Below, piece by piece: positions 45,173-60,595 of a stretch of 64,000 nt of DNA (positions are counted from its first letter, which is position 1; the number at the start of each line of letters is the position of its first letter). A model generated the notes under the pieces. That model made no database searches, had not been told where the DNA came from, and saw only the letters and a list, made by a program, of their open reading frames with translations. Source of the stretch: an uncultured Coriobacteriaceae bacterium (GTDB lineage Bacteria > Actinomycetota > Coriobacteriia > Coriobacteriales > Atopobiaceae). The stretch lies in the NCBI GenBank assembly GCA_902795065.1, contig CADBJR010000011.1, forward strand, positions 2,090 through 66,089. The letters are read 5' to 3'. The position numbers and the translations under genes are program-made.

Positions 45173-45634
45173 CCGTTTGCGACTTTTATCAGCTTCGGTC
45201 CGTTTACCTGCGGTTTTCAACAAAGGTCGCAAAACACGGACAAGCTGGTGAAACCGCGGATACGTTTCTCGTACCGTCCAAGGACCCCACAACCCGGAAA
45301 CCGGGGGTGGGGTCTTTCCGTTAGAAATGTATGCAATAGGGCGTTTACCTGCGAAAACACATGTTCTTGCGGATAAAACAGCGGTATTATTCCGCGTTTA
45401 TCCACGGTGTTTTGCATAATCGGGTATAACGATGAATTGTTGAAAACTCCGCTCACGGATTTCTTCCAAATTTGTTGAAAACGTTGAAAACCAGCAAAAC
45501 CGCAGGAATCGCAGAGGTTCTATCGACAATCGCTGTTGAAGAAACAAGCGGGCAATAATTCACGTTCCCGCAGGTGCCGCGATTGGGGTAGTATCCTCTC
45601 ACACTTTGCCAGAATTCTGCCGACAGGACACTCC
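45173..45634. promoter_or_regulatory. Unusually long, A/T-richer rplI-dnaB spacer with a DnaA box and clustered TGTTGAAAAC motifs
   Basis: TTATCCACg at 45398-45406 (8/9). TGTTGAAAAC at 45438-45447 and 45473-45482, CGTTGAAAAC at 45482-45491, GTTTTCAACA at 45213-45222. CGTTTACCTGCG occurs twice (45201-45212 and 45342-45353). Confidence 0.4.
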
Positions 45635-47047
45635 ATGCCCAGCCCCAGCCTCGACGTCAACCTCGCCCAGACGCCCGCACAGATCGATCGCCCCATGCCC
45701 CAGAACCTCGAGGCGGAGGCCGCGCTGCTTTCCGCCATGATCTGGAACCAGGAGGCTCTCCAGGAGTGCCTCATCGAGCTCGTGCCGGAGGATTTCTACA
45801 ACCCCGCGAACCGCCTGATCTTCAATGCGATCAAGCGCATGTTCGACGAGGGGCGGCCCATCGACATCATCACGCTCGCCGACGTGCTCAAGAGCGAGGG
45901 CAACCTCGAGAAGGCGGGCGGTCCCGGCTACCTGGTGGGTCTCTCGGAGAACTACGTCGCCGACGTGTGGCCCAACCACATCGAGATGCTGCGCCGCGAT
46001 GCCGTGCTGCGCGCCATGATCAAGACCTCGGCGAGCATCTCCGCCCTTGCGTACAACGCGCCCGAGGACACCAAGGAGGTCATCGACCGCGCCGAGCAGA
46101 TGCTGTTCGAGGTCACGGGCCGCGCGGTGCGCTCGAGCTACGACGGCCTGTCCAATATCATGTCCGACTATTTCGTCTCGCTCGAAGAGATGAGCAAGAA
46201 CAAGGGCATGCGCCAGGGCATCTACACCGGCTTCCCCGACATCGACCGCAGCCTGCTCGGCATGCGTCCGGGCCAGATGATCGTCATCGGCGCCCGGCCC
46301 GGCGTGGGCAAGACGTCGTTCGCGCTGAACATCGCGGTGAACGCCGCGCGCGAGGGCGCCTCGATCGCGTTCTTCTCGATGGAGATGAGCAAGGTCGAGA
46401 TCGCGCAGCGCCTGCTCGCGAGCGAGACCACCGGCGTGCACATGCGCGAGATCCGCGCGGGCATGATCCGCGATGCCAACTGGATCAACATCATCGAGGC
46501 CACCGACAAGCTCTCGCAGCTCGACATCACGATCGACGATACGGCCGGTACCACGGTCACCGAGATCCGCGCGAAGGCCCGCCGCATCCTGAACGGCAAG
46601 AAGGACGGCCTCGTGATCATCGACTACATGCAGCTCCTCTCGCCGTCGGGCGGCCGCCGCTCCGACAGCCGCGCGACCGAGGTCTCCGAGATGAGCCGCG
46701 CCATCAAGATCCTCGCGAAGGACCTCGGCGTGCCCGTGATCGCGCTCTCGCAGCTCAACCGCCAGGTCGAGAGCCGTGGCGGCGGCAGGGGAGAGGAAGC
46801 GCGCGCCAAGCGCCCGCAGCTCGCCGACCTGCGCGAGTCGGGCTCCATCGAGCAGGACGCCGACATCGTGCTGCTGCTCGACCGCTCGCTCACGAAGGAG
46901 GAGGCCGAGCGCCAGAACAGGCCCGACTGGGGCGTAGCGGACTGCATCATCGCCAAGAACCGCTCCGGCGAGACGGGCACCGTGCGCTTGGCCTTCATCT
47001 CCGAGGACACCAAGTTCATCTCGCTCGACTCCCGCCACGAGGAGTAG
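45635..47047 (+). CDS. dnaB: Replicative DNA helicase DnaB
   Basis: PQNLEAEAALLSAMIW, GARPGVGKTSFALN (Walker A), LVIIDYMQLL, ALSQLNRQVE and DLRESGSIEQDAD. Start at ATG 45635. Confidence 0.95.
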   Translation: MPSPSLDVNLAQTPAQIDRPMPQNLEAEAALLSAMIWNQEALQECLIELVPEDFYNPANRLIFNAIKRMFDEGRPIDIITLADVLKSEGNLEKAGGPGYLVGLSENYVADVWPNHIEMLRRDAVLRAMIKTSASISALAYNAPEDTKEVIDRAEQMLFEVTGRAVRSSYDGLSNIMSDYFVSLEEMSKNKGMRQGIYTGFPDIDRSLLGMRPGQMIVIGARPGVGKTSFALNIAVNAAREGASIAFFSMEMSKVEIAQRLLASETTGVHMREIRAGMIRDANWINIIEATDKLSQLDITIDDTAGTTVTEIRAKARRILNGKKDGLVIIDYMQLLSPSGGRRSDSRATEVSEMSRAIKILAKDLGVPVIALSQLNRQVESRGGGRGEEARAKRPQLADLRESGSIEQDADIVLLLDRSLTKEEAERQNRPDWGVADCIIAKNRSGETGTVRLAFISEDTKFISLDSRHEE

Positions 47048-47048
47048 C

Positions 47049-47188
47049 GCCGCGTAGAAGCTCCGAATGGTAATGCGCCGGCCGCGGGATGCCACATCGG
47101 GGCATGGAGCGGCGCTGTATTCCCAGTTGAGCGCTGTTCGCGGTGCGGCAATCTACGGAAGCGTTACCATTCGGGGACTCTCCGCGGC
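47049..47188. repeat. MITE/REP-like inverted-repeat element, copy B
   Basis: Arms GCCGCGTAGAAGCTCCGAATGGTAATGC (47049-47076) and GCGTTACCATTCGGGGACTCTCCGCGGC (47161-47188), 23/28 complementary. Arms are homologous to copy A (GCCGCGTA..AATGGTAA.GC). Exactly fills the convergent intergenic gap. Confidence 0.55.
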
Positions 47189-47190
47189 GG

Positions 47191-47676
47191 CTAACTGTTC
47201 AGCTGCGTGGCAAAGGCGTCGAGCTGCGCTGCGAGGTCGGCGGCACCCATCTTCGTCGGGCTCCTGAGGCTCAGAAGCGGAAGCTCCTCGGTCGTGCGCC
47301 CGAGCTTGGCGGCTGCGTCCTGCGCGCACTTCGTCGCATCGCCGCCTGCGCTCGAGATGAGCAGCGCGAGGCTTTTCCCGCCCAGGTCCCGGCCCTTGAG
47401 GAAGGTGTTGATCGGCGCGGCGACCTTGTCCGCCCACACGGGCGTGCCGAGCACCACCTGGTCGTATGCTGCGAGGTCGATGTCGAGCGGCTGAATCGCG
47501 GGACACTTGTCGAACGTGGCGTCTTTGCCGCCGACGAGGATCTTCAGCGGGCCCTTCGCGGGATACGGCTTCACGGTGCGGATTTCGAAGGCGTCGGCGC
47601 CGAGGCGCTCCGCGAGCCCGCAAGCAGCGAGACGCGTGTTGCCGTCGAGCGAGAAGAAGACGACAGCGGTTTTCAT
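47191..47676 (-). CDS. Flavodoxin-family module (may be translated separately from internal ATG 47676)
   Basis: MKTAVVFFSLDGNTRLAA..VVLGTPVWADKVAAPINTFL is a typical short flavodoxin-fold protein (161 aa). GGGAAAGGA lies upstream of the ATG, but there is no in-frame stop between it and the TIR/TPR ORF. Confidence 0.5.
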   Translation of the reverse strand: MKTAVVFFSLDGNTRLAACGLAERLGADAFEIRTVKPYPAKGPLKILVGGKDATFDKCPAIQPLDIDLAAYDQVVLGTPVWADKVAAPINTFLKGRDLGGKSLALLISSAGGDATKCAQDAAAKLGRTTEELPLLSLRSPTKMGAADLAAQLDAFATQLNS

Positions 47677-50600
47677 TGCGGTCCTTTCCCTAGGGACATC
47701 GCCGCCCCATGCATGAAGCTCGCGCGCGACGATATCGACGAAGAGCTGATCGTGCTCGGTCCCGCTCAGCTCGATGCAGCGCTTTCCGTAGTCGAGGGCT
47801 TCTTCGAGATAGGCCACCCGCTTCTCGAGCGAGCTGGTGGATGCTGCACTCTTATAGCACAGCATCGCCACTATCCGGATCGGCCAGAGAGTCGGGTCCT
47901 TCTTGGCGAGCTTGAGTCTGATCTTGAGGGCATCCTCTAAGTTCCATTCCAGCGCTTCCAGCACCTCCGCACGGTCTTCATCGGAGACGCTGTAGAGGGG
48001 CTCGTAACGCTCTCCGTCCTCATCCATCCAGCCCCCTGATGCCCACAGGGCATCGATCTTATCGATCCGTACGCTCGCCATTACGTAGTACGCGAAGGCG
48101 TTATCGGCGTCGCCGAGGACGCGGTACATGCGACCCGCACGGATGTAGTCGTATAGCGGCTCTGCCGTCTCGTACATGCCCGATCTCTCGATGAGTACGG
48201 AATCAACCTCGCCGAGCCGCTGGAACCAGTCCGCCATCGAGGGGTAGTCGTGCGCAGCTTCCAGCCGGTTGATGTAGCGCGTGTAGTCTTCGCTGAGCGT
48301 GCGAAGGGCGTCGAGGGGAAGCGACCCCAGAGATCCTGCGTCGTACACCGGCGGCTCGGGACCCACCTCCGCCAGCTTCCCGGGATCGACCTCGCGCGAG
48401 ATGTACGTCTCATCCAGGCCGCGCAACGCGCGTTCCTGCAGCTCCTGCACGTCGTCCGAACCGTCCGTCTTCGAGAGCGCCCCGAGCACGCTGAGCTCAC
48501 GCTCGTACCAGTAGATGGCGTCCACGCGGTCTCCAACCTTGCGGTACTGCCGGGCGATTGCATCGTAGCGGTCGACAAGCTCACGGAACGCGGCGATGCC
48601 TGCGGCGTCTTTGGGCAGGGTGTAGACCGTATCGGCGAGCAAGCGGTCGTGCCAGCGCTTCCTGCGCGCTTCGGATTCTGCAATCTCAGCCCGCAGCTCA
48701 TCGATAGCCGCCTTGGCATCTGTGATGTGTTCTTTCCAGGACGAATCGGGATTCTCGGCGACGACTCGCTCGAACTCGGCGACGGTCTTCTCGAAGGACG
48801 CAATGGAATCCTTCGGCCGATGTTCGATGCGATGGACCAATGCCATGCGCTCATAGGCGACGCCGAGGGCCTCGTGTGCCTCGTACGTATCGGATTCCGC
48901 TGCTGCCTGCTCGGCCGCGGCTACCGCTTTCTTCGCAGAATCCCATGCCTTGTCGTACTCGAAGCGGTCGAGGAAGAGGTCGACGAGATGAGAGCGGAAC
49001 AGCGACAGATCGATGCGAACTTCCGCGCTGCCGGTCTCCTCGATAAGACCCTCGGACTGGACGCACGCCTGCGCATAGCGCTCGCAGGCGCCGACAAGGT
49101 CGTGCGCCTCCTCGCATGCCGAGGCGGATTCGATGAGTAGGTCGATAGCCCTCCTCCGGCTCAGGATTTCGGTGTCTCCGGCAGCCGATGCGGCCGCCGC
49201 GCGATACGTGCGCACCTCCTCGTGGGAGCCTTCGGCCTCGCAGATGGACGCCATCGCGTCGTTGAGAGACATAAGACAATCTCTTGCGTTCTTCTCATCC
49301 AGCTCCTCGGCAGCCGCAATGCCCTTCGAGCACCAATGACGCGCTTCCGCGGTGCTGCCCTCTCCAAGCTCGAGCCGTGCCATAAGCTCATAGACCAGCA
49401 CGAGATGCCGCGCCGAGGCGAAGGAGCCCTCCTCCGCGGCAAGACCCTCGAGCAGGTCGATGGAGCGCAGGAACCACGCGCGTGCCTCGTCGACATTGTC
49501 CTCCGCGGCGTACGTGTTGCCGATGTGTGCGGAGCACGCGACGAGCGCCTGCCTGACCAGCTTCTTGTCGACGAAGCCGCCGAAGGTCCTGATGTCCAGT
49601 CCGTTGGGGCCATCCACGAACGAGAACGCCTCGCCCTGCTCTTCCGCGAGAACCGCCTCCAGATACGCGCGACCCTTGTCGAGCCACGCCCTGGCCGTGG
49701 AAGGATCGCCGCTGCCGAGGAGCTCGGATCCCAGCGCAATGCACGAGGTCGCGATGTCGAACCTGCCGTCGAGATTGCCTGAATCGACGATCCTCATGGC
49801 CTGCTCGAGCGCTTCTACCTGCGCTTTCCGCGATCCGACGGCATCGCCGGCAATCTTCTTGAGCATCGCGAGGCTATCGAGCGCCTTGTGGAGTCTGGCC
49901 GAAGGGAAGCGCAGATCGCCTTCCCGCCCTTTCAGGATCTCGATCAGCCGCTCCTGCCACGCGATGGCGGTGCGATAGCTGCGCACGACGCCCTCGCCGT
50001 TGCGGTACATCGCGACCAGCCGCTCGCATGCCTCTGGCAGATCAGCCTCGGCGGCGGCGGTGATGAGTCCGAGCGCCCGATCGCGGTCGACCTCCACGTC
50101 GATGCCCGAGAGGTACGCAAGGCCGATGAGGTAGTCGTGCGTGGGCTCGCCGGCGCGGCGTTTGAGCGCGATGCCGCGAAGCACCTCCTCGAGGCGCTTT
50201 CCGACAGCATCGCGATCCTTAGCGGAAATGGTTCCGCCCAGCCCTAGGTAGAGGGACGCGAGTTGGCCGGGGTCGGTCGGCAGCGCCTCGATGGGCAGCG
50301 TCGGCTTGCCCGCATCGCGCGCTGCCGGCCACTCGGTGGTCATCACGTAATTGGGGTTCTGCAGCAGGCTCGGAGTCACCACCAGCGTGAATACGGCGCT
50401 CTTCTGCAGCGCGTCCATGATGGCCTGGTTGAAGCTCTCGCCCGGCACGAGGAACTCGTCGTACCAGATGGCGATGTCGCGGCAGAGCGGGTTCGCGTGG
50501 ATGAGGCGCATGACCTGCTGCGCCTCGGCGCGGTCGCGTTTGCGGTAGCTCAGGAAGACGTACGCGTCGAATGCGGCGCGCACGCGGGCGGCGAGGTCGT

Positions 50601-51072
50601 CGTCGACGAGCACCGACCCGAGGAAGCGCGCGAGCCGCTCGCGGTAGGGGAGCGCCGTGGGGTCGTGCTCCTGAGCGTGGCGGTCGAGGCACTGCAGGTC
50701 GCCGCAGAGGCGATTGAACTCGGACGCCAGCGCGATGTCGTCGAGGACGGGCAGCACCGGGACATGCTGCTCTACCGCGCATGGGAGCTCCTCGAGGCGC
50801 GCGGCGCAGTCCTCGTGCAGGAACCGCTGCGTCACGGGCACCACGACAAGCTGCATCTGCGCGAGCTCGTCGGGCGAGAGGGCGGCGTCCGGCCCATATG
50901 CAGGGTCGCGGTACCAGATCGCAGCGTTGGCCTGTAGGCCGAGGATCTCGTCCGCGATAACCTCGAGCTGCCCCGCGAGGTCGTCCGGGTGGCCGCACAG
51001 ATACACGCGCGGGCGTCCCTGCGGGCTGGCGTTTCCCCGAGTGCGGTACCCGAGCGTGTTGTTCCCCGACAT
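47191..51072 (-). CDS. Large cytoplasmic protein: TIR-like module + TIR (TIR_2-type) domain + Sel1-like repeats + long TPR-like helical-repeat region, reading without a stop into a C-terminal flavodoxin module
   Basis: ATG 51072 follows GAGGAG (the ORF upstream of it is antisense to purA). YVFLSYRKRDRAEAQ..IAIWYDEFLVPGESFNQAIMDALQKSAVFTLVVTPSLL..TTEW is a TIR pattern. RVYLCGHPDD..AAIWYRDP..LVVVPVTQRFL is a second TIR-like unit. YLIGLAYLSGIDVEVDRDRALGLITAAAE..LVAMYRNGEGVVRSYRTAIAWQERL matches Sel1 repeats. About 750 aa of helical repeats follow. Confidence 0.75.
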   Translation of the reverse strand: MSGNNTLGYRTRGNASPQGRPRVYLCGHPDDLAGQLEVIADEILGLQANAAIWYRDPAYGPDAALSPDELAQMQLVVVPVTQRFLHEDCAARLEELPCAVEQHVPVLPVLDDIALASEFNRLCGDLQCLDRHAQEHDPTALPYRERLARFLGSVLVDDDLAARVRAAFDAYVFLSYRKRDRAEAQQVMRLIHANPLCRDIAIWYDEFLVPGESFNQAIMDALQKSAVFTLVVTPSLLQNPNYVMTTEWPAARDAGKPTLPIEALPTDPGQLASLYLGLGGTISAKDRDAVGKRLEEVLRGIALKRRAGEPTHDYLIGLAYLSGIDVEVDRDRALGLITAAAEADLPEACERLVAMYRNGEGVVRSYRTAIAWQERLIEILKGREGDLRFPSARLHKALDSLAMLKKIAGDAVGSRKAQVEALEQAMRIVDSGNLDGRFDIATSCIALGSELLGSGDPSTARAWLDKGRAYLEAVLAEEQGEAFSFVDGPNGLDIRTFGGFVDKKLVRQALVACSAHIGNTYAAEDNVDEARAWFLRSIDLLEGLAAEEGSFASARHLVLVYELMARLELGEGSTAEARHWCSKGIAAAEELDEKNARDCLMSLNDAMASICEAEGSHEEVRTYRAAAASAAGDTEILSRRRAIDLLIESASACEEAHDLVGACERYAQACVQSEGLIEETGSAEVRIDLSLFRSHLVDLFLDRFEYDKAWDSAKKAVAAAEQAAAESDTYEAHEALGVAYERMALVHRIEHRPKDSIASFEKTVAEFERVVAENPDSSWKEHITDAKAAIDELRAEIAESEARRKRWHDRLLADTVYTLPKDAAGIAAFRELVDRYDAIARQYRKVGDRVDAIYWYERELSVLGALSKTDGSDDVQELQERALRGLDETYISREVDPGKLAEVGPEPPVYDAGSLGSLPLDALRTLSEDYTRYINRLEAAHDYPSMADWFQRLGEVDSVLIERSGMYETAEPLYDYIRAGRMYRVLGDADNAFAYYVMASVRIDKIDALWASGGWMDEDGERYEPLYSVSDEDRAEVLEALEWNLEDALKIRLKLAKKDPTLWPIRIVAMLCYKSAASTSSLEKRVAYLEEALDYGKRCIELSGTEHDQLFVDIVARELHAWGGDVPRERTAMKTAVVFFSLDGNTRLAACGLAERLGADAFEIRTVKPYPAKGPLKILVGGKDATFDKCPAIQPLDIDLAAYDQVVLGTPVWADKVAAPINTFLKGRDLGGKSLALLISSAGGDATKCAQDAAAKLGRTTEELPLLSLRSPTKMGAADLAAQLDAFATQLNS

Positions 51073-51246
51073 AGCCTGCTCCTCTCGTGCGCATTCACTG
51101 CTCACATCATCGCATAATCGGCGCATTTCGCGGCAAATGTGACGGTCCCTTCGACAGGTTTGTGTGGGTCGGCCGAGCGGAACCCTTACGGTACCCGCAT
51201 CACGTATACTTAAAGGGTTGACGGCCATCGATAGAAGGAGCGCATC

Positions 51247-52527
51247 ATGCCTGCTTCCGTGCTTGTGGGAACCCAGTGGGGCGACGAGGGCAAGGGTAAG
51301 GTCACCGATCTGATCTCCGGCGACTACGACGTGGTCTGCCGTTACGCCGGTGGCGCGAACGCCGGCCATACGGTCATCGTGGGCGGCACCAAGCTGGCGC
51401 TGCACCAGGTCCCGTCCGGCGTCATGTACGAGGGCACCGTGCCCATCATCGGCAACGGCTGCATCGTCGACCCCGAGATCCTGCTCTCCGAGATCGACAT
51501 GCTCGAGGACCAGGGCATCTCCTGCGAGCGCCTTAAGATCTCGGGCAACGCGCACATCGTCATGCCGTACCACAAAGACCTCGACGGCGCGCACGAGAAG
51601 AAGCTCGGCAAGAACCTCATCGGCACCACCAAGCGCGGCGTCGGCCCCACCTACATGGACAAGATGAACCGCACCGGCCTGCGCATCCAGGACATGCTCG
51701 ACGAGAAGATCTTCCGCGAGAAGCTCGACGCGGCGCTCGCCTATACCAATCCCATCCTCGAGAAGGTCTACGAGATGCCGACCTACACCGTCGAGCAGAT
51801 CTGCGAGACCTACCTACCGATGGCCGAGCGCATCCGCCCGTACATCTGCGAGAGCTCGCTGTTCCTGAACGAGCAGCTCGAGAGCGGCAAGAACATCCTG
51901 TTCGAGGGCGCCCAGGCCACGATGCTCGACATCGACCACGGCACCTACCCGTTCGTGACCAGCTCCAACTGCACCGCGGGCGGCGCCGTCACCGGCTCCG
52001 GCGTGGGCCCGACCCACATCGACCGCGTCCTCGGCATCGCCAAGGCGTACATGACGCGTGTCGGCAGCGGCCCGTTCCCCACCGAGCTCGACGACGAGAT
52101 CGGCGAGACGCTCTGCGAGGTCGGCCATGAGTACGGCGTCACCACCGGGCGCAAGCGCCGCTGCGGCTGGTACGATGGCGTCATCGTCAACTACGCCACG
52201 CGCGTCAACGGCCTCACCGACCTCGCCATCACCAAGCTCGACGTGCTCGGCGCGCTCGACACCATCAAGGTCTGCGTCGCCTACGAGTGCGACGGCGTGC
52301 GCTACACCACCGTCCCCGAGCACCAGAGCGTGTTCTACCACGCCGCGCCCGTCTACGAGGAGCTCCCCGGCTGGAAGTGCGACATCTCCGGCGTCCGCAA
52401 CTTCTACCAGCTCCCGCGCGAGGCCAAGGACTACATCGACTTCCTCGAGCAGCTCGCCGGCGTGCGCGTCTCGATCATCACCGTCGGCCCGGACCGCGAC
52501 CAGACCATCAACAGGTATTGGAAGTAG
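51247..52527 (+). CDS. purA: Adenylosuccinate synthetase
   Basis: VLVGTQWGDEGKGKVTD, GGANAGHTV, GTTKRGVGPTY and TTGRKRRCGW. Confidence 0.96.
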   Translation: MPASVLVGTQWGDEGKGKVTDLISGDYDVVCRYAGGANAGHTVIVGGTKLALHQVPSGVMYEGTVPIIGNGCIVDPEILLSEIDMLEDQGISCERLKISGNAHIVMPYHKDLDGAHEKKLGKNLIGTTKRGVGPTYMDKMNRTGLRIQDMLDEKIFREKLDAALAYTNPILEKVYEMPTYTVEQICETYLPMAERIRPYICESSLFLNEQLESGKNILFEGAQATMLDIDHGTYPFVTSSNCTAGGAVTGSGVGPTHIDRVLGIAKAYMTRVGSGPFPTELDDEIGETLCEVGHEYGVTTGRKRRCGWYDGVIVNYATRVNGLTDLAITKLDVLGALDTIKVCVAYECDGVRYTTVPEHQSVFYHAAPVYEELPGWKCDISGVRNFYQLPREAKDYIDFLEQLAGVRVSIITVGPDRDQTINRYWK

Positions 52528-52529
52528 CC

Positions 52530-53345
52530 GTGCCCGCAGATCGCGTGACGATACCGACCTGCGCGGTCGTGGCTGACACCTGCTGCGACGTCCCGTCCGA
52601 GCTGCTCGCGCAGCTCGGCGTCGCCGTGTGCCAGCGCCGCCCCGATGTCGACGAGCTCGTGAAGCTCTACCGCGGGCTGCTCGCGCAGGGCTCCGAGGGC
52701 ATCGTCTCCATCCACAAGGGCTCGGAGGCCGTGGCCGCCTGCGCCGCCGCCGCGAAGATGGACGAGCCGGGCCGTGTGACCGTGGTCGACGTCGGCCTCA
52801 CCTCCGCGGCGCTCGCGCTCGCGGTCGAACGCGCCGCGTACGCAGCGGGCAACGGCGGAACGCCGATAGAGGTCGCCGCGCGCGCCGATGCCGTCGCGGA
52901 TGCGACCGTGCTGCTCGTCATCTCCGACCCGAGCGCGCCGCGCCAGGGCCACGGCGGGCTCTTCGACCGATTCGCCTATCTGCGCCGCCGCGCGCTCGGC
53001 GTGAGCCACCTCGTGCGTCTCGACCGCTCGGGCTACAAGGTCCTCGCGGAGTCGGACGACCTCGCCAACCTCGCGGGGCTCGTCGCGCACGCCTTCGGCA
53101 CCCGCGCGCGCACCGACGGGGCGCTCTGCTACATCGAGGCCGCGGGCAGCGTGCCCAACGGCCTCGCCCAGCTCGACAAACCCTTCGATACCAACGAGTA
53201 CGTCTCGTATCGCCTGGCGACGCTTGTGCCGGCGACCGAGCTCGTGCGCTATTCCGGACCTGGCGCCCTTGCCGTCGCCATGGTCCCGGAGGACGTGTAC
53301 GGCGGCCACGAGACAGCGCTCTTCGATAGCAACCTGACCGTGTAA
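52530..53345 (+). CDS. Divergent DegV-like protein
   Basis: GTG 52530 lies 2 nt after the purA stop. The N-terminus CAVVADTCCDVPSELL resembles the DegV start (VTDSTCDLP). The rest is weakly DegV-like and appears to lack the usual SxxSGT segment. Confidence 0.5.
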   Translation: MPADRVTIPTCAVVADTCCDVPSELLAQLGVAVCQRRPDVDELVKLYRGLLAQGSEGIVSIHKGSEAVAACAAAAKMDEPGRVTVVDVGLTSAALALAVERAAYAAGNGGTPIEVAARADAVADATVLLVISDPSAPRQGHGGLFDRFAYLRRRALGVSHLVRLDRSGYKVLAESDDLANLAGLVAHAFGTRARTDGALCYIEAAGSVPNGLAQLDKPFDTNEYVSYRLATLVPATELVRYSGPGALAVAMVPEDVYGGHETALFDSNLTV

Positions 53346-53356
53346 GGAGTACAACC

Positions 53357-55599: not shown

Positions 55600-55936
55600 G
55601 CGAACGTGGCGGCACGAATTTGAACGCATATATATAAAGAACGCGAGAGCTGGATTCCGCGAACGGTCAGAAACTTGCATGCTTCGAAAAAGCGGAATAT
55701 GCATAGCAGTTAATACGGCTGCAGATGAAATGTATCATCAGCGCATATTGTCGAGAAGTTGAATAATTGCAGCTTAATTGCGGAAAAACCGCTGAAAGAA
55801 TTCGTCGAAAATTAGTTGAATCCACGGTTAACAACCGTTCAGATTCCTCTACCATGTTGAATGGTGCTATATGCGACCATGGGACAGCTGTATCGATTTT
55901 TCCGTCATCCCGTGGTCCGAAGGAAAGGTGCTGGTC

Positions 55937-58900
55937 ATGGGTAAGAAGTTCCGCAGGTTCTGCAAGAGCGCGCGTGGTCCGCTTGCATGGATCCTCTCGC
56001 TCATCCTCGTGTGGCAGATGTTCCCCGCGCAGGGGATGGCATATGCCCTCGAGGAGGCGGCGGAAGCGTTCACGTCCAACGACGTGGATGCAGTCGTCGT
56101 CGAGGATACGGCTGCCGAGCCGGAGGTTGATCTTGTCTACGATGAGGACGCCGCTGAGCCGGAGGTCGTGATCGAGGAGGAACCCGTCGTTGAAGACGAG
56201 GCTATCCCCGAAGAGGAGACTGTTTTCGAAGAGGATGCTGTCCCCGAGGAGGAACCTGTCATCGAAGACGAGGCTATCTCCGAAGAGGAGCCCGCGGTCG
56301 AGGAAGAGGCCGTTACCGAGGAGGAGCCTGAAGTTGAGGCTGAGCCTGAGGAAGAGCCCGCTCCTGCGACCCCCATGCTCGCCGGCGCCAAGAGCCTTAC
56401 CGTCGACGGCGTGACCATCACGGTCGGCGTGGGCGATGGCGTGCTGCCCGAGGGTTGGTACTTCACTGCAGAGCCCATCACGGGCTACCAGCTCACCCAG
56501 GTTGAGGACGCAGTTACCGAGCAGCAGGCTGACGCACAGGTCGTCGTCGCGTTCGACATCACCCTCTACGACGCCGATGGCAACGAGATCCAGCCCGTCG
56601 ACGGCACCGCTGTCAGGGTGACCTTCCGCAACACGGGAGCCGAGACCGATAACGTGAGCGTCTACCACGTGTCCGACGAGATGGTCGCCGAGTACGTCGA
56701 CACCGCTTCCGCTTCCGCCAACAGGCAGAGCTTCGACGCCGACCAGTTCTCCATCTACGTCGTCGTCGAGAGCGGTGCGGATGCGCGCCTGGTCGTTCAG
56801 TTCATGAATGGCACGACCGAGGTCGCCTCGATGATGATCACCGAAAACCAGATCGAGCAAATTGAGGAGTACCTCTATGACCCCGGAATGGGAGAGCTGG
56901 CCGAAGGCGTCCAGTTCCGCGGTTGGACGACCAACCCGAACTACACGACTGAGACTACGGGCATGACCATCGAGGAGGTCCGCGAAGACGTAACCAAAAA
57001 ACTGAACGCTGGCGTGGAAGACGGCGATACCGTTACCTACTACGCCATGGCTTTCAAGACCTATACGGTTACCTATCTGGACGAGAAGGGCGTCCTGCTC
57101 AAGACGGACCAGATCTTGGCACCCGCAACGAGCACTGATGACCAGACGTACACGGTCAACCTTTCCTATACGCCGTATCCGACAGATGAGCCCGGTGTCG
57201 TGGCCGACTTTGTTGGCTGGCAGCAGATCAGCCCAGAGGTTGAGGGCACCGAGGTGCTGTACCAGAACGACGACACGATGACGCTGAGCGAGACGACGTA
57301 CGTCCTCAAGGCGAAGACCCAGAAGGGTCACTGGCTTACCTTCGAAGAGAACCTCTCCAACGCTACTTACACAGAGCCTCAGTTTGTGGCTATCGGCGCT
57401 AATCCTACTGAGCCCACGACCGCTCCGACCCGCTCGGGATACACCTTTGACGGCTGGTACACCGAGGATGCGTCCGACGCACGCGACGGCCAGGTGAGCG
57501 GATCCGCGTTTGACTTCAACCAGGAGCTGACCGCCAACACCACGGTCTATGGAAAGTGGACGGCAGCGTCGACGGCGAACTACAACGTCGTTGTCTGGCA
57601 GCAGCAGGTCGACGGTGATGGCTATGACTACAGCGGCACCACCGTTACTGTGACCGGCGCAACAGTGGGTCAGAACACCTATGCCGTCAACGGAACAGCT
57701 GGCGGTTCGTCTGCACGCGTTTACACCGTATCGGGGCAGCGTTATCAGGACGTCAGCTTCCGCGGTTTCCACTTCAGCCGTGTTGACGCCACCACGACGG
57801 TGAAGCCCGACGGCACCACGGTCATCAACGTGTACTTCGACCGCAACGAGATTACCTACAACTTCGAGGGGTACACCTATACCGAGACAACGGCTACGGG
57901 CGGCACCCAGTACGGCCTTGTTGATGGTGAGTACGTTGAACTCTCCTATAGCCGGTACTACGAGAGGTGGTACTACGGTTATTACAACTGGTATGACGAC
58001 ACCCGCTATACCAGAACTACGGAGACTCAGTCCTTCAGCGGTCTGTACGGCTCCGCATTCACCCAATGGCCCGATCCGGGCAATGGTTCTGTGTGGAGTA
58101 TTGGCGACATCAGTTATCCTCTGCCTTTGACGGAGTTCAAACCTGAGGCCGTGAATGAGACTTCCTCGTCGAACGAGTTCACGTTTGAACTTGACGACAT
58201 GAATAATAACTACAGCCTTGTTGTCTACAAGCAGACGGAGACCGGAGCTTGGAGCTACACCAACGCGTACACGATTACGACGGGACGCTGGTCGGGTGGC
58301 ACTTGGACTCCCTCTGAGACCTACACCGGCTTCACTATCGACGCATATCGCAAGGGACAGGGCGGAAGCTGGACCAGTTGTACGCCGAGCACTAACATTA
58401 GAGATGCTTATAATCTCTATCTCCGCTATTCGCGCAACCAGTACAACATCACGTACAGCGACGGTGTTTTTGTCGCTGGTGCGGACGAAACCCCGGTAAC
58501 CGATGCGCCTTCGGCACGCACGAATTTCGTCTCGAAGAACGGCGTCTACTACGAGGCGAACATCAATACCGCGGACTACAACATCACGCCCGAGCTCAAT
58601 GGCTACGTGTTCCTCGGCTGGTACGACAATGCGCTCTGTGCAGGCGATCCCTATACATTCGACAAGATGCCCGCTCACAATGTGACCCTCTACGCCAAGT
58701 GGGGACTTCGCGAGTATGCGGTCAACCTGCATCCCAATGACAGCACCTCCGACCCCATCGTCTACACCAAGGAAGATCAGGCTGCGACGTTCTACGTCGA
58801 CGAGGGCGACAAGATCGGTAACGTCGGCGGCGAGAGGATCTACTATGACCTGGTTGGTTGGTATACCGACGAGGATATGACGCACGTCTTCAACTTCGAG

Positions 58901-60595
58901 TCCTTCCGTCTCAATGCGACGACGGTGGGCAACTACGGTCACCTGTACACCGAGAGTGAGATTGACCCGCAGTACCCCACCACCGTCGGTGAGCTCAACC
59001 TGTACGCCAAGTGGCGCAGCCACCTGATCGGCGCTGAGGGGATCAAGGTCGAATACGACGCCACCGATAAGGGTACCAATGCACCCGAGGACGTCAACTA
59101 CTACGTGGATGGCGCGAAGGCCATTGCTGGCTCCGCTGCTACCGCCAATGATGCTGACAACTACGTGTTCAGCCACTGGGCAGTCATGAAGTGGAACGGG
59201 ACCGAGTACGTTGAGTCCGATGTCACGGTCTTCCCAGGCGAGACCTTCGATGTCAACGCAGCTGATGCGAGGATTACCGATGCCTACAACATCGTTGTTG
59301 CGCCCGATGATCTTGAGAGCGACGGTACCTACACGTACACCATCCAGCTGAAGGCCGTGTACGTGGAGAAGGACCAGGAAGTCAAGACCCACATCTATTG
59401 GTACGACAACCATGGTGGTGTCGTCCGTGAGGATACCGGCCTCTCGATTAACCAGGCCGTGGATGTGCCTGCCGCTCCCACCCGCCCCGGCTATACCTTC
59501 AAGGGATGGGTGCGTGATGTGGAGAACACCAGCACCAAGACCACTTCCTCGACCGAGCTGTTCATCACCTATACCAATGGGGCATACAGCGCCAGCCAGG
59601 TTGCCGCTGACGAGAATTGGGCATCTACGGACAACCAGTATCACGCCATGTATGCACTGTGGGAGGCTAATACCTACACGGTGAAGTTCGATAAGAACGC
59701 CGACGATGCTACTGGCACCATGGCGGACCAGACGTTCACCTATGACGTCGAGCAGAACCTGACCGCCAATGCGTATACACGCCCGAATTACAAGTTCCTC
59801 GGGTGGAGTACTGAGAGCGATGCCACTGCCGCGACCTATACGGATCAGCAGAGCGTCAAGAATCTGACTGCTGAGCCCAATGGCGTCGTTACCCTTTATG
59901 CGGTGTGGGAGCTCGATGTTGCAACCGTCACCGTGCACCACTACCTCAAGGGCACCACGACGAAGGTTGCCGATGATGTGACAGAGTCGAAGACCATCGG
60001 CACCGAAATCGACCCGAGCACTGTCCCTGCGGCTACTTTTTTCCTGAGCCCTTACGACAGCTATCCCATGACCAAGGACAGCACCAATCCGACTACGCCC
60101 GTCACGGTGACGGCCGATGGTGCTGAGATCATGCTGTACTACACGCTGCCGCTGACCATCGAGGCCTCGACCGTTAGCAAGACCTACGATGGAACGCCTC
60201 TCGCTGGAGAGTACACCGTCGAGGGAACGCTGCCCGGAGATGGTGGAGAGGACGGTGTGGTCAGGCAGGCCCTCGGCGAGGCTCCGTCGATCACTAACGT
60301 TTCTGAGAGTCCGAAGGAATACCTGACCGAGTCTGATCAAGCTGCAATCACGGGTATTCCCGAGTACTATGACGTTTCTTTCACTCCCGGTACCCTCACC
60401 ATCACCGCCCGCCCGGCCTCCTTCACCGGCGTGTCCGAGACCAAGGACTACACCGGCTCCGAGATCGAGATCACGACCGTCACGCCCGACGGCACGCCGC
60501 CTTCTCCGCCAAGGGCACGAACGTGGGCACCTACCCCGGCACCATCACCGACGCCGCGGACGTCAAGATCACCGACGCCGCCGGCAACGACGTGA
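55937..60595 (+). CDS. Giant surface adhesin, 5' portion: signal peptide, E/P-rich acidic repeats, Listeria-Bacteroides (Flg_new) repeats, first MBG domain; reading frame breaks at about 60500
   Basis: MGKKFRRFCKSARGPLAWILSLILVWQMFPAQGMAYA signal peptide (ATG 55937). EEPV(V/I)EDEAI(P/S)EEE repeats. RSGYTFDGWYTE..TVYGKW, GYVFLGWYDN..VTLYAKW and NYKFLGWSTE..VTLYAVW. The last about 30 codons (PPSPPRARTWAPTP..) are out-of-frame translation. Confidence 0.8.
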   Translation: MGKKFRRFCKSARGPLAWILSLILVWQMFPAQGMAYALEEAAEAFTSNDVDAVVVEDTAAEPEVDLVYDEDAAEPEVVIEEEPVVEDEAIPEEETVFEEDAVPEEEPVIEDEAISEEEPAVEEEAVTEEEPEVEAEPEEEPAPATPMLAGAKSLTVDGVTITVGVGDGVLPEGWYFTAEPITGYQLTQVEDAVTEQQADAQVVVAFDITLYDADGNEIQPVDGTAVRVTFRNTGAETDNVSVYHVSDEMVAEYVDTASASANRQSFDADQFSIYVVVESGADARLVVQFMNGTTEVASMMITENQIEQIEEYLYDPGMGELAEGVQFRGWTTNPNYTTETTGMTIEEVREDVTKKLNAGVEDGDTVTYYAMAFKTYTVTYLDEKGVLLKTDQILAPATSTDDQTYTVNLSYTPYPTDEPGVVADFVGWQQISPEVEGTEVLYQNDDTMTLSETTYVLKAKTQKGHWLTFEENLSNATYTEPQFVAIGANPTEPTTAPTRSGYTFDGWYTEDASDARDGQVSGSAFDFNQELTANTTVYGKWTAASTANYNVVVWQQQVDGDGYDYSGTTVTVTGATVGQNTYAVNGTAGGSSARVYTVSGQRYQDVSFRGFHFSRVDATTTVKPDGTTVINVYFDRNEITYNFEGYTYTETTATGGTQYGLVDGEYVELSYSRYYERWYYGYYNWYDDTRYTRTTETQSFSGLYGSAFTQWPDPGNGSVWSIGDISYPLPLTEFKPEAVNETSSSNEFTFELDDMNNNYSLVVYKQTETGAWSYTNAYTITTGRWSGGTWTPSETYTGFTIDAYRKGQGGSWTSCTPSTNIRDAYNLYLRYSRNQYNITYSDGVFVAGADETPVTDAPSARTNFVSKNGVYYEANINTADYNITPELNGYVFLGWYDNALCAGDPYTFDKMPAHNVTLYAKWGLREYAVNLHPNDSTSDPIVYTKEDQAATFYVDEGDKIGNVGGERIYYDLVGWYTDEDMTHVFNFESFRLNATTVGNYGHLYTESEIDPQYPTTVGELNLYAKWRSHLIGAEGIKVEYDATDKGTNAPEDVNYYVDGAKAIAGSAATANDADNYVFSHWAVMKWNGTEYVESDVTVFPGETFDVNAADARITDAYNIVVAPDDLESDGTYTYTIQLKAVYVEKDQEVKTHIYWYDNHGGVVREDTGLSINQAVDVPAAPTRPGYTFKGWVRDVENTSTKTTSSTELFITYTNGAYSASQVAADENWASTDNQYHAMYALWEANTYTVKFDKNADDATGTMADQTFTYDVEQNLTANAYTRPNYKFLGWSTESDATAATYTDQQSVKNLTAEPNGVVTLYAVWELDVATVTVHHYLKGTTTKVADDVTESKTIGTEIDPSTVPAATFFLSPYDSYPMTKDSTNPTTPVTVTADGAEIMLYYTLPLTIEASTVSKTYDGTPLAGEYTVEGTLPGDGGEDGVVRQALGEAPSITNVSESPKEYLTESDQAAITGIPEYYDVSFTPGTLTITARPASFTGVSETKDYTGSEIEITTVTPDGTPPSPPRARTWAPTPAPSPTPRTSRSPTPPATT

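What the first reader, a model, noticed from the sequence alone, without database searches (positions are those of the whole stretch)
47191..51072. Tandem-TIR / Sel1 / TPR giant protein wedged between dnaB and purA: candidate NAD-consuming sensor/effector of unknown type
The 1,293-codon ORF starts with a TIR-like unit (aa about 22-110). A textbook TIR_2-type domain follows (aa about 170-262: YVFLSYRKRD..IAIWYDEFLVPGESFNQAI..SAVFTLVVTPSLL..TTEW, the last Glu sitting where bacterial TIR NADases have their catalytic Glu). Then come Sel1-like repeats and about 750 aa of TPR-like helical repeats. Bacterial TIR domains are established NADase or signal-generating effectors in anti-phage systems (Thoeris and others). 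Long repeat arrays are typical sensor modules of STAND- or Avs-like single-protein defence genes, but I see no NTPase (Walker A) here. The gene is a non-core insertion between housekeeping genes. It is transcribed divergently from purA and is bordered by a MITE-like element. TIR-TIR-SLR-TPR(-flavodoxin) is not an architecture I can assign to a described system.
Basis: partly seen in the sequence, partly recalled or inferred. Interest (0 to 1): 0.7.

Follow-up and report, generated by a model that had tools for sequence, protein, structure and literature searches.

The report
Tandem-TIR repeat protein with flavodoxin tail
This is a real 1,293-residue gene from an Atopobiaceae gut or rumen bacterium that joins a probable NAD-cleaving TIR enzyme to a fast-evolving helical-repeat arm and a flavodoxin tail. 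It is most likely a one-protein sensor/effector of an already described kind (TIR plus TPR), in a new and untested variant.

Summary
The ORF is real: window 47191-51072, minus strand, 1,293 aa, with an RBS.

**Domains**
- Pfam finds TIR_2 (aa 172-261) and Flavodoxin_4 (aa 1135-1253), both above their curated cut-offs.
- Two Sel1 repeats (aa 302-378) match solved Sel1 proteins.
- TPR hits are below threshold here but strong in homologues.
- The N-terminal "TIR-like unit" is confirmed by an AF2 model whose best fold matches are TIR domains, and by an hhalign match to the second TIR (97.5%).
- There is no NTPase.

**Active site**
- The second TIR keeps SYRK and WYDEF motifs and an invariant Glu247.
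- Glu247 aligns with SARM1 E642, but not with AbTir E208.

**Family**
- The tandem-TIR/Sel1/TPR core covers about 1,500-2,300 clusters in gut and rumen anaerobes, annotated only generically.
- The flavodoxin fusion is restricted to a few Atopobiaceae lineages.

**Locus**
- The gene sits between dnaB and purA in the closest relatives, once inverted.
- The junction is empty in five more distant relatives and holds other cargo in two.
- The repeat arm diverges to 10-32% identity while PurA stays at 95%.

**Caveats**
- I found no defence-island enrichment, no partner gene and no phage or plasmid carriage.
- TIR+TPR single-protein defence (E. coli TIR-II) and NIR+HEAT (Vulcan) already exist.

Verdict: a new variant of a known kind, of moderate interest.

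The parts
47191..51072 (-). Complete CDS, 1,293 aa plus stop: tandem TIR, Sel1, degenerate TPR, flavodoxin
   Evidence: ORF list and translation. A 99%-identical full-length protein (P0001) heads a 90% cluster of 90 members, with many full-length copies among those read.
51079..51086 (-). Shine-Dalgarno-like GAGAGGAG, 6 nt upstream of the ATG at 51072
   Evidence: Read directly from the sequence.
50698..51015 (-). Domain 1 (aa 20-125): diverged TIR-like domain. It lacks the SYRK motif; Glu95 is conserved in 54/67 homologues
   Evidence: No Pfam hit. AF2 pLDDT 89-92. Foldseek best hits are TIR domains. hhalign against domain 2 gives 97.5%, with E95 aligned to E247.
50569..50697 (-). Conserved helical linker (aa 126-168) between the two TIR domains
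   Evidence: AF2 helices 133-136, 143-154 and 158-167. Near-invariant residues D137, T139, A140, L147, L151, V154, L155, D158.
50248..50568 (-). Domain 2 (aa 169-275): canonical TIR_2 domain and putative NADase. Motifs: FLSYRKRD, IAIWYDEFLVPGE, NYVMTTEW
   Evidence: Pfam TIR_2 E=1.9e-10, above its cut-off. Best PDB sequence match is the AbTir TIR domain, 7uwg, E=4.8e-4. Invariant residues are listed.
50332..50334 (-). Codon of Glu247, the candidate catalytic glutamate
   Evidence: Invariant in 67/67 homologues. Aligned to SARM1 E642, with Y242 opposite W638. The alignment register with AbTir is ambiguous.
49939..50169 (-). Two Sel1-like repeats (aa 302-378)
   Evidence: Pfam Sel1 24.6 bits, below its cut-off. 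Solved Sel1-repeat proteins match, e.g. 6ok3 at E=9e-20. AF2 shows helix pairs.
47698..49938 (-). Fast-evolving helical-repeat arm (aa 379-1125), degenerate TPR; the presumed sensor
   Evidence: Only sub-threshold TPR hits. Identity to orthologues is 10-32% here, against 60-92% in the N-terminal module. Homologues have strong TPR_12-type repeats.
47194..47679 (-). C-terminal flavodoxin domain (aa 1132-1293) with an SLDGNT phosphate-binding loop
   Evidence: Pfam Flavodoxin_4 E=5e-12 on the isolated fragment. PDB 4ici E=4.7e-10, with conserved FS..G.T and P(I/V)W motifs.
47048..47190 (.). 143-nt spacer between the convergent dnaB and this gene, forming one long hairpin. Possibly a bidirectional terminator; not shown to be a mobile element
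   Evidence: Fold -83.1 kcal/mol, z=-6.4. Single copy. 92% identical in the sister strain L083.
51073..51246 (.). 174-nt divergent promoter region shared with purA
   Evidence: Coordinates. No sigma-70 consensus match. 99.4% identical in L083.

Best explanation
The gene encodes a cytoplasmic single-chain sensor/effector, built from four parts.

- **Enzyme.** The second TIR domain (aa 169-275) is an NAD+-cleaving enzyme of the SARM1/AbTir type.
- **Regulatory unit.** A diverged first TIR domain (aa 20-125), a conserved helical linker and two Sel1 repeats pack against the second TIR as one rigid, strongly conserved unit. This unit probably keeps the enzyme autoinhibited, or supplies the second half of a composite TIR-TIR active site.
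- **Sensor.** The long, rapidly diverging TPR-like solenoid (aa 379-1125) is the ligand-binding arm. When it binds a trigger, most likely a phage protein, molecules would assemble through their TIR domains and switch on NAD+ hydrolysis or cyclisation. That would deplete NAD+ and abort the infection.
- **Accessory tail.** The flavodoxin tail is a lineage-specific addition in a few Atopobiaceae. It may be a second sensor or bait linked to FMN or redox state.

What is shown: the domain identities, the conservation pattern, the lack of an NTPase or partner gene, and the locus variability. What is inferred: NADase activity, autoinhibition, the nature of the trigger, and the defence role.
For: **Domains and active-site motifs**
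- TIR_2 and Flavodoxin_4 are above Pfam cut-offs.
- The tandem-TIR fold is supported by a confident model of aa 1-420 (pLDDT 91.9, pTM 0.89), TIR fold hits for domain 1 and an hhalign match between the two domains at 97.5%.
- Residues S175, Y176, R177, D180, W203-E206, P210, G211, T233, N241 and E247 are invariant in 67 homologues of 45-77% identity.
- A domain-2 profile aligns SYRK with SARM1 SYRR, Y242 with W638 and E247 with the catalytic E642.
- The WYDEF BB-loop motif is shared with the NADase AbTir.

**Evolutionary pattern**
- Conservation is mosaic. Against orthologues, identity is 60-92% in the N-terminal module, 10-32% in the repeats and 54-84% in the flavodoxin. In the same genomes PurA is 95% and DnaB 87% identical.
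- Presence at the dnaB-purA junction is variable, the gene is inverted in one lineage, and other cargo occupies the junction elsewhere.
- Some relatives show paralogue expansion: three tandem copies in L088 and a protein with two complete modules in P0005.

**Precedents**
- E. coli TIR-II is a TIR+TPR single-protein defence that requires the TIR active site (PMC11350192).
- Vulcan is an NIR+HEAT single protein that depletes NAD+ after sensing a phage protein (bioRxiv 10.64898/2026.09.04.749371).
- In BcTir/Tpr, an inactive TIR regulates an NADase-TPR protein (bioRxiv 10.1101/2023.05.26.542521).
Against: - There is no biochemical or phage data for any member of this family.
- Context does not point to defence. 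Of 148 proteins flanking 28 family loci, only isolated ones hit PADLOC models (MTase_II, mREase_IV, LmuA, one each). The commonest neighbours are LRR_5, AMP-binding and ABC proteins.
- In the window itself the neighbours are ribosomal, replication and purine genes.
- PADLOC has no model for the protein beyond weak TIR-level hits.
- The module is absent from 50,697 phage records and from plasmids apart from Sel1-level matches. It occurs on only 2 of 2.9 million viral contigs.
- The gene is syntenic in the nearest relatives, and its GC3 (0.82) lies inside the window's range of 0.70-0.96. It is therefore an old resident, not a recently mobile island.
- The equivalence of the catalytic Glu is ambiguous against AbTir (E208 falls opposite V243 or T245). 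I could not superpose coordinates.
- TPR hits in this particular protein are below their cut-offs.
Confidence: 0.5

Rival explanations
1. The protein is a non-immune NAD+/redox signalling or regulatory enzyme of anaerobic gut bacteria. The TIR domain would make ADPR or a cADPR isomer, or tune NAD+ levels, in response to a cellular cue read by the repeat arm. In Atopobiaceae the flavodoxin (FMN or redox state) would add to that cue. Phage would play no part.
For: - Neighbourhoods are ordinary metabolic or housekeeping genes with no defence-island enrichment.
- The gene is retained at one locus in the closest relatives.
- It is not carried by phages or plasmids.
- The fusion is to a genuine flavodoxin with an intact FMN-phosphate loop.
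- Gut commensal TIR domains are known to produce NAD-derived metabolites (PMC9092222).
- BcTir/Tpr was reported to affect ROS homeostasis.
Against: - A housekeeping regulator would not be expected to let its ligand-binding arm fall to 10-32% identity between species whose PurA is 95% identical.
- It would also not be expected to be absent from sister genera, to flip orientation, or to occur as tandem paralogues or a doubled module.
- The flavodoxin is present in only a handful of clusters out of more than 1,500.
Confidence: 0.25
2. The protein is a non-catalytic scaffold or adaptor. Both TIR domains would act only as protein-protein interaction modules, as in TLR adaptors. The Sel1/TPR solenoid would assemble a complex, and no NAD+ would be turned over.
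For: - Domain 1 has lost the SYRK motif.
- Sequence alignment to the proven NADase AbTir does not put Glu247 at the catalytic position.
- Sel1 and TPR repeats are classical scaffolds.
- BcTir is a naturally inactive TIR.
Against: - Domain 2 keeps every motif expected of an NADase: SYRK, WYDEF and the invariant Glu247 aligned to SARM1 E642.
- Absolute invariance of polar pocket residues across 67 diverse sequences is hard to explain for a mere interface.
Confidence: 0.12
3. The protein is a host-directed Tcp-like effector. In this reading a TIR-containing protein from a gut or rumen commensal interferes with animal TLR/MyD88 signalling, and the Sel1 repeats mediate host interaction.
For: - Fold hits include TcpB/BtpA.
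- Sel1-repeat proteins of Legionella and Helicobacter act on hosts.
- The family is confined to host-associated anaerobes.
Against: - There is no signal peptide or transmembrane segment (maximum Kyte-Doolittle 19-residue mean 1.1).
- The protein is a 1,293-aa cytoplasmic-type protein with no adjacent secretion system.
- A C-terminal FMN flavodoxin makes little sense outside the cell.
Confidence: 0.05

Closest known systems
E. coli TIR-II system (TIR + TPR single-protein antiphage system; Nat Commun 2024, PMC11350192)
   Same: Both have a TIR domain and a TPR array in one polypeptide. Most TIR-II members lack an ATPase, and no partner gene is required. Defence depends on the TIR active-site residues. 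TIR-II is reported as the most widespread TIR system.
   Different: This protein has two TIR domains (one degenerate), a Sel1 bridge and a flavodoxin tail. It comes from Actinomycetota and Bacillota gut anaerobes. I could not test sequence-level homology to the tested E. coli protein. No defence data exist for this family.
BcTir/Tpr of Bacillus cereus (bioRxiv 10.1101/2023.05.26.542521)
   Same: A catalytically degenerate TIR is combined with an NADase joined to a TPR array, and the TPR part tunes the enzyme. This parallels degenerate domain 1 plus catalytic domain 2 plus TPR.
   Different: BcTir/Tpr is a two-gene operon whose NADase is described as a glycosidase domain at the N-terminus of the TPR protein. 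Here everything is fused, and both N-terminal domains are TIR homologues. Homology was not tested.
Vulcan (NIR/DUF4062 + HEAT repeats; bioRxiv 10.64898/2026.09.04.749371)
   Same: Vulcan is a single protein with an N-terminal TIR-like NADase, a C-terminal helical-repeat sensor and no NTPase. It senses a phage protein directly and then depletes NAD+.
   Different: The effector family differs: there is no DUF4062 hit here. The repeats are HEAT rather than Sel1/TPR. Vulcan has no tandem domain and no flavodoxin.
SARM1 / AbTir-type TIR NADases
   Same: Shared features are the TIR fold, the SYR(R/K) motif, the aromatic-plus-Glu pair in alpha-C (Y242/E247 against W638/E642) and the WYDEF BB-loop identical to AbTir.
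   Different: Regulation in SARM1 is by ARM and SAM domains, and in AbTir by a coiled coil. Here it would be by a second TIR plus Sel1/TPR. The spacing between the aromatic residue and the Glu is 5 here, not 4.
Avs / bacterial NLR-like STAND proteins with TIR effectors
   Same: The layout is an N-terminal effector followed by a C-terminal TPR sensor, with a conserved effector and a hypervariable sensor.
   Different: There is no STAND NTPase module. The oligomerisation switch must therefore differ.
Thoeris (ThsB TIR + ThsA)
   Same: A TIR domain is present, with a weak ThsB1 HMM hit (E=7e-4).
   Different: There is no ThsA (SIR2/SLOG or Macro) neighbour. The TIR is fused to its own presumed sensor.

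Membership tests
TIR domain superfamily (Pfam TIR_2, PF13676) | Profile HMM match above the curated gathering score | tested here: met
   aa 172-261, 41.7 bits against a cut-off of 28, E=1.9e-10.
TIR domain superfamily (Pfam TIR_2, PF13676) | Flavodoxin-like beta-alpha TIR fold for the N-terminal unit, which no HMM detects | tested here: met
   The AF2 model of aa 1-160 has pLDDT 89.3. Top Foldseek PDB hits are SNC1, SARM1, RPS4 and TcpB TIR domains, with TM 0.48-0.61. hhalign against domain 2 gives 97.5%. TM scores are modest, and DNPH1/NDT folds also appear among the hits.
Catalytic TIR NADases (SARM1, AbTir, plant TIRs) | Catalytic glutamate in helix alpha-C | tested here: inconclusive
   Glu247 is invariant in 67/67 homologues and aligns with SARM1 E642. 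HMMER aligns AbTir E208 with V243 and the 7uxr Glu with T245. No coordinates were available for superposition.
Catalytic TIR NADases (SARM1, AbTir, plant TIRs) | NAD-pocket motifs: SYR(R/K) after beta-A, and a BB-loop | tested here: met
   FLSYRK(R/K)D is invariant and aligns with SARM1 FISYRR. WYDEF is identical to AbTir. The role of these residues in NAD+ binding comes from the SARM1 literature as I recall it, not from a test here.
Catalytic TIR NADases (SARM1, AbTir, plant TIRs) | Measured NAD+ hydrolase or cyclase activity | not testable with these tools
   This needs a biochemical assay.
Thoeris | Adjacent ThsA effector gene (SIR2/SLOG or Macro) | tested here: not met
   The neighbours are dnaB and purA. 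No SIR2, SLOG or Macro family appears among the 25 families most often matched by the 148 family neighbours; only those 25 of 120 matched families are listed.
Avs / STAND NLR-like | Central STAND NTPase with Walker A and B motifs | tested here: not met
   There is no NTPase Pfam hit. The only G....GK[ST] string lies inside the flavodoxin, and there is no hhhhD[DE] motif.
E. coli TIR-II (TIR + TPR) | TIR and TPR domains in one protein or operon | tested here: met
   TIR_2 is present, with TPR below its cut-off here but strong in homologues. This is a match at domain-composition level only.
E. coli TIR-II (TIR + TPR) | Sequence homology to the experimentally tested E. coli protein | not tested
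Vulcan / NIR | DUF4062 (NIR) effector domain | tested here: not met
   aa 1-150 has no Pfam family at E<=10, and the full protein has no DUF4062 hit.
Flavodoxin_4 (PF12682) | HMM match above the cut-off, and the FMN phosphate loop S/T-x-x-G-x-T | tested here: met
   39-46 bits against a cut-off of 24. SLDGNT aligns with SATGTT of 4ici, and TPVW with YPIW. FMN binding itself was not tested.
Sel1-like repeats | Profile or sequence match to Sel1-repeat proteins | tested here: met
   Pfam Sel1 is below its cut-off (24.6 against 30.7). However, 6ok3 matches at E=9.4e-20 and several other solved Sel1-repeat proteins also match.
MITE (for the flanking element) | Multiple copies, terminal inverted repeats and a target-site duplication | tested here: not met
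   Single copy in the window and in 170 loci. No flanking direct repeats. The whole genome was not available.

The most novel reading that the evidence does not exclude
The flavodoxin tail could be an integrated bait or redox sensor on an NTPase-less TIR immune receptor. The protein would guard the cell's flavodoxin-dependent radical-enzyme activation (anaerobic RNR, PFL), or its FMN redox state. It would fire its NADase when a phage factor binds or perturbs the flavodoxin. The internally duplicated, degenerate TIR would serve as a built-in inhibitory partner, as in RRS1/RPS4. That would be a bacterial counterpart of plant NLR integrated decoys, built without any NTPase.
Probability: 0.08. Interest if true: 0.8.

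Novelty: new variant of a known kind. Interest (0 to 1): 0.45.

Why it matters
If the inferred mechanism holds, this family would be a widespread, uncatalogued single-gene NAD-depleting immune sensor of human-gut and rumen anaerobes. It covers about 1,500-2,300 clusters at 50% identity. Phage defence in these organisms is almost untested experimentally.

The fixed pairing of a degenerate and a catalytic TIR in one chain offers a natural model for how TIR-TIR contacts gate NADase activity without an ATPase switch.

The Atopobiaceae flavodoxin fusion would link that switch to flavin or redox biology.

TIR products of gut bacteria (ADPR, cADPR isomers) have also been detected in hosts, so the family may contribute to NAD-derived metabolites in the gut.

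The general principle of a TIR plus a helical-repeat sensor is already established, which limits the surprise.

Tried and rejected
1. **Longer ORF.** I rejected the longer ORF starting at GTG 51594. It is antisense to purA, has no RBS, and homologues start at the ATG 51072 equivalent.
2. **First neighbour annotation.** My first pass used wrong-strand ORFs in this 64% GC DNA and gave no Pfam hits. I corrected it with GC3 frame analysis.
3. **Fold search with the 420-aa model.** The two-domain model gave uninformative multi-domain matches (EngA, Sel1). I therefore modelled domain 1 alone.
4. **Sequence search of domain 2 against the PDB.** As a single sequence it was marginal (AbTir, E=0.08). 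A family profile improved it to 4.8e-4 but left the Glu register ambiguous.
5. **PDB 9m0n.** This "Tetratricopeptide repeat protein" gave a weak N-terminal match (E=0.14). It is not a significant homologue of a TPR-rich family member, and no paper was found for it.
6. **Phage, plasmid and viral-contig searches.** All were essentially negative.
7. **Rfam and promoter/terminator scans of the locus.** Nothing credible turned up.
8. **Transposon-type boundaries.** There are no direct or inverted repeats flanking the gene.
9. **Compositional evidence for horizontal transfer.** GC3 of 0.82 is lower than in the adjacent housekeeping genes but inside the window's range. I rejected it as evidence.
10. 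**Defence-island test.** Bulk scanning of neighbours showed no clear enrichment. I had no matched background set, so the result is only qualitative.

Full report
**What is there**

The minus-strand ORF 47191-51072 encodes 1,293 residues. It starts at an ATG preceded by GAGAGGAG. The mechanical ORF list extends it to a GTG at 51594.

GC3 frame analysis was needed to identify the true neighbours in this DNA of roughly 60-70% GC. In order they are:
- rpsF, ssb, a DUF2232 membrane protein, rplI and dnaB (45536-47047, +);
- the target gene (-);
- purA (51247-52527, +) and purD;
- a large Listeria-Bacteroides-repeat surface protein.

**Domain anatomy**

- Pfam places TIR_2 at aa 172-261 (41.7 bits, cut-off 28) and Flavodoxin_4 at aa 1135-1253 (39 bits, cut-off 24).
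- Sel1 is below its cut-off in Pfam. Solved Sel1-repeat proteins match aa 302-378 strongly (6ok3, E=9e-20).
- TPR families never reach their cut-offs in this protein, even on fragments (best TPR_12, 27 bits against 30.1). Homologues contain clear 42-residue TPR_12-type repeats.
- The first 150 residues have no Pfam hit at all.
- An AlphaFold2 model of aa 1-420, built on 67 homologues, is confident (pLDDT 91.9, pTM 0.89). It shows two units of identical beta-alpha topology (aa 22-123 and 170-274) followed by helical hairpins.
- A model of aa 1-160 alone (pLDDT 89.3) has TIR domains as its best PDB matches: SNC1, SARM1, RPS4, TcpB/BtpA, SPARTA and RUN1. TM scores are about 0.5-0.6. The related DNPH1 and deoxyribosyltransferase folds come next.
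- A profile-profile comparison of the two units gives 97.5% probability, E=7e-12.

The "tandem TIR" observation is therefore correct. The first copy is a diverged duplicate.

There is no NTPase. The only Walker-A-like string sits inside the flavodoxin, and no transmembrane segment or signal peptide is apparent.

**Is the TIR catalytic?**

Across 67 homologues (45-77% identical in the N-terminal module), domain 2 has invariant S175, Y176, R177, D180, W203, Y204, D205, E206, L208, P210, G211, T233, N241 and E247.

The best PDB sequence match of a domain-2 profile is the NADase AbTir (E=4.8e-4), which shares the WYDEF BB-loop motif. In that alignment, however, AbTir's catalytic E208 falls opposite V243. 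In the related 7uxr chain the catalytic Glu falls opposite T245.

Against the SARM1 TIR sequence, which I verified against PDB chains, the same profile aligns FLSYRK with FISYRR, Y242 with W638 and E247 with the catalytic E642. The spacing to the beta-D GK...PI motif is identical.

I could not superpose coordinates, so the catalytic-Glu test is formally inconclusive. The only invariant acidic residue of helix alpha-C does align with the catalytic residue of the best-studied TIR NADase. Domain 1 lacks the SYRK motif and keeps a Glu at the equivalent position (E95) in 54 of 67 sequences. It is more likely regulatory than catalytic.

**Family and distribution**

- The N-terminal 300 residues, searched against 1.84 billion cluster representatives, find 2,327 proteins at E<=1e-3 and 1,513 at E<=1e-30. 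Among the 150 listed, nearly all match across the whole tandem module in one stretch.
- Where named, members are annotated "TIR domain-containing protein", "tetratricopeptide repeat protein" or "hypothetical". They come from Atopobiaceae, Oscillospiraceae, Ruminococcaceae, Eubacterium, Solobacterium, Mogibacterium and Ruthenibacterium.
- Where the source is visible, contig names indicate human gut metagenomes; a rumen or other host-associated origin for the rest is inferred from the taxa.
- The flavodoxin fusion occurs only in P0001 (this species, 90 near-identical members), P0003, P0004/P0259 and P0007.
- The module is absent from the phage collection. Plasmid hits match only the Sel1 region. 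It occurs on 2 of 2.9 million viral contigs.

**Locus history**

A purA-anchored scan of species representatives shows ssb-rplI-dnaB-purA-purD conserved in Atopobium spp., another Atopobiaceae and a Coriobacteriaceae genome. In these, a spacer of only about 100-210 bp separates dnaB from purA, and there is no TIR gene. These genomes are fairly distant (DnaB 53-59% identical).

Two others carry different cargo at the same junction:
- a Schlafen/AlbA_2 + HATPase_c_4 protein in Collinsella stercoripullorum;
- an SbcCD-like pair in a Coriobacteriaceae MAG.

In contrast, the closest relatives found do carry an orthologue next to dnaB (PurA 95% in L171; DnaB 87-88% in both).
- In L081 it is convergent with dnaB, as here, but with a PP2C phosphatase and a kinase on the other side.
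- In L171/L172 it lies between dnaB and purA in the opposite orientation.

These orthologues are only 43-58% identical overall. Identity is 60-92% over aa 1-350, 10-32% over aa 400-1000 and 54-84% over the flavodoxin.

The gene is thus an old resident of a variable slot, not a recent insertion, and its repeat arm evolves far faster than anything around it. Its GC3 (0.82) is lower than that of the flanking housekeeping genes (0.91-0.96) but within the window's range. No transposon-like boundaries exist.

**Context across the family**

No partner gene is conserved. Among 148 proteins flanking 28 loci, the most frequent Pfam families are:
- LRR_5 (10, several from one array);
- LRR_8 (5);
- AMP-binding (4);
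- ABC transporter domains (3);
- RyR (3);
- DO-GTPase2 (2).

PADLOC hits are sporadic. Three of 87 loci hold more than one copy, including three tandem paralogues in L088. P0005 contains the whole N-terminal module twice.

This is a single-gene system without the classical defence-island signature. I had no matched background set, so this result is only qualitative.

**Mechanism proposed**

The most economical reading is a single-chain sensor/effector.
- A conserved enzymatic head consists of a degenerate TIR, a linker, a catalytic TIR and the Sel1 repeats, modelled as one rigid body.
- A hypervariable TPR-like arm binds the trigger.
- Trigger-induced TIR assembly turns on NAD+ cleavage.
- The flavodoxin is a clade-specific accessory sensor or bait.

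The steps that are shown are the domain identities, the conservation, the absence of an NTPase or partner, and the variability. The steps that are inferred are NADase activity, autoinhibition by domain 1, the trigger and the outcome.

I put 0.5 on this. About 0.65 applies to "regulated NAD-cleaving enzyme" and less to "antiphage". The main rival is a non-immune NAD/redox signalling role (0.25). It draws strength from the bland neighbourhoods, the local synteny and the flavodoxin. A purely scaffolding role (0.12) and a host-directed Tcp-like role (0.05) are less likely.

**Comparison with known systems**

The principle is established.
- E. coli TIR-II is a TIR+TPR single-protein system, mostly without an ATPase, whose defence needs the TIR active site. 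It is described as the most widespread TIR system (PMC11350192).
- BcTir/Tpr pairs an inactive TIR with an NADase-TPR protein.
- Vulcan is an NIR+HEAT single protein that senses a phage protein and depletes NAD+.

This protein is not Thoeris (no ThsA), not Avs/STAND (no NTPase) and not Vulcan (no DUF4062). PADLOC gives only weak domain-level TIR hits.

What is new is the fixed tandem of a degenerate and a catalytic TIR with a Sel1 bridge, the size of this uncharacterised gut-anaerobe family, and the flavodoxin fusion. I classify it as a new variant of a known kind, interest 0.45.

**Flanking element**

The 143-nt spacer between the convergent stop codons of dnaB and this gene folds into one long hairpin (-83 kcal/mol, z=-6.4). 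It is 92% conserved in the sister strain but unique in all sequence available here. It may be a bidirectional terminator. The MITE label is unsupported.

Noticed in passing
window 47048-47190: The whole 143-nt spacer between the convergent dnaB and the TIR gene folds into a single long hairpin (-83 kcal/mol, z=-6.4) with no T-run. It is 92% identical in the sister strain, whereas the purA-side spacer is 99.4% identical. It is single-copy in all the data held here.
   Followed up: partly
L005 4213-5834; L007 1947-5533 (dnaB-purA junction of other Coriobacteriia): The same dnaB-purA junction holds a Schlafen/AlbA_2 + HATPase_c_4 protein in Collinsella stercoripullorum and an SbcCD-like Metallophos + AAA_23/SMC pair in a Coriobacteriaceae MAG. 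It is empty in five other genomes. The junction looks like a variable cargo slot.
   Followed up: partly
L171 7072-11187 and L172 7119-11234: In a close relative (PurA 95%, DnaB 87%) the orthologue lies between dnaB and purA but in the opposite orientation. An extra 153-aa ORF of unknown function lies between it and purA.
   Followed up: partly
P0005 (1,903 aa; Eubacterium sp. MAG): One family member contains the complete tandem-TIR/Sel1 module twice (at the N-terminus and around aa 890), each followed by its own TPR array.
   Followed up: no
L088 1455-9436: Three tandem paralogues (872, 868 and 811 aa) of the family sit between iscS-nifU-Rrf2 and HD/rsfS/leuS housekeeping genes.
   Followed up: partly
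L087 9415-10839, plus two other family loci: Proteins with RyR domains flank the family in 3 of 28 loci. Double-GTPase 2 (DO-GTPase2) proteins do so in 2. These are possible weak associations that I did not test against a background.
   Followed up: no
L084 5577-16814: In a Solobacterium-like contig the family member is embedded in an array of at least six BspA-type LRR_5 genes, next to hsdM and sbcCD.
   Followed up: no
window 52528-53356: The 829-bp interval between purA and purD has no ORF with a coding GC3 signature or a convincing Pfam hit (only a weak DegV fragment in an overlapping frame). A gap of similar size exists in the relatives L001-L003.
   Followed up: no
window 55871-60595: A 1,574-aa protein with Listeria-Bacteroides repeat (Flg_new) domains has a low GC3 (0.74), second lowest of the genes in the window, in a region where GC drops to 0.57-0.60. 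It may be a horizontally acquired surface protein.
   Followed up: no
PDB 9m0n/9umd: A recently deposited 824-aa "Tetratricopeptide repeat protein" gives a weak N-terminal match (E=0.14) to the domain-2 TIR profile. No paper was found for it. It may be another TIR-like/TPR protein with a solved structure.
   Followed up: partly
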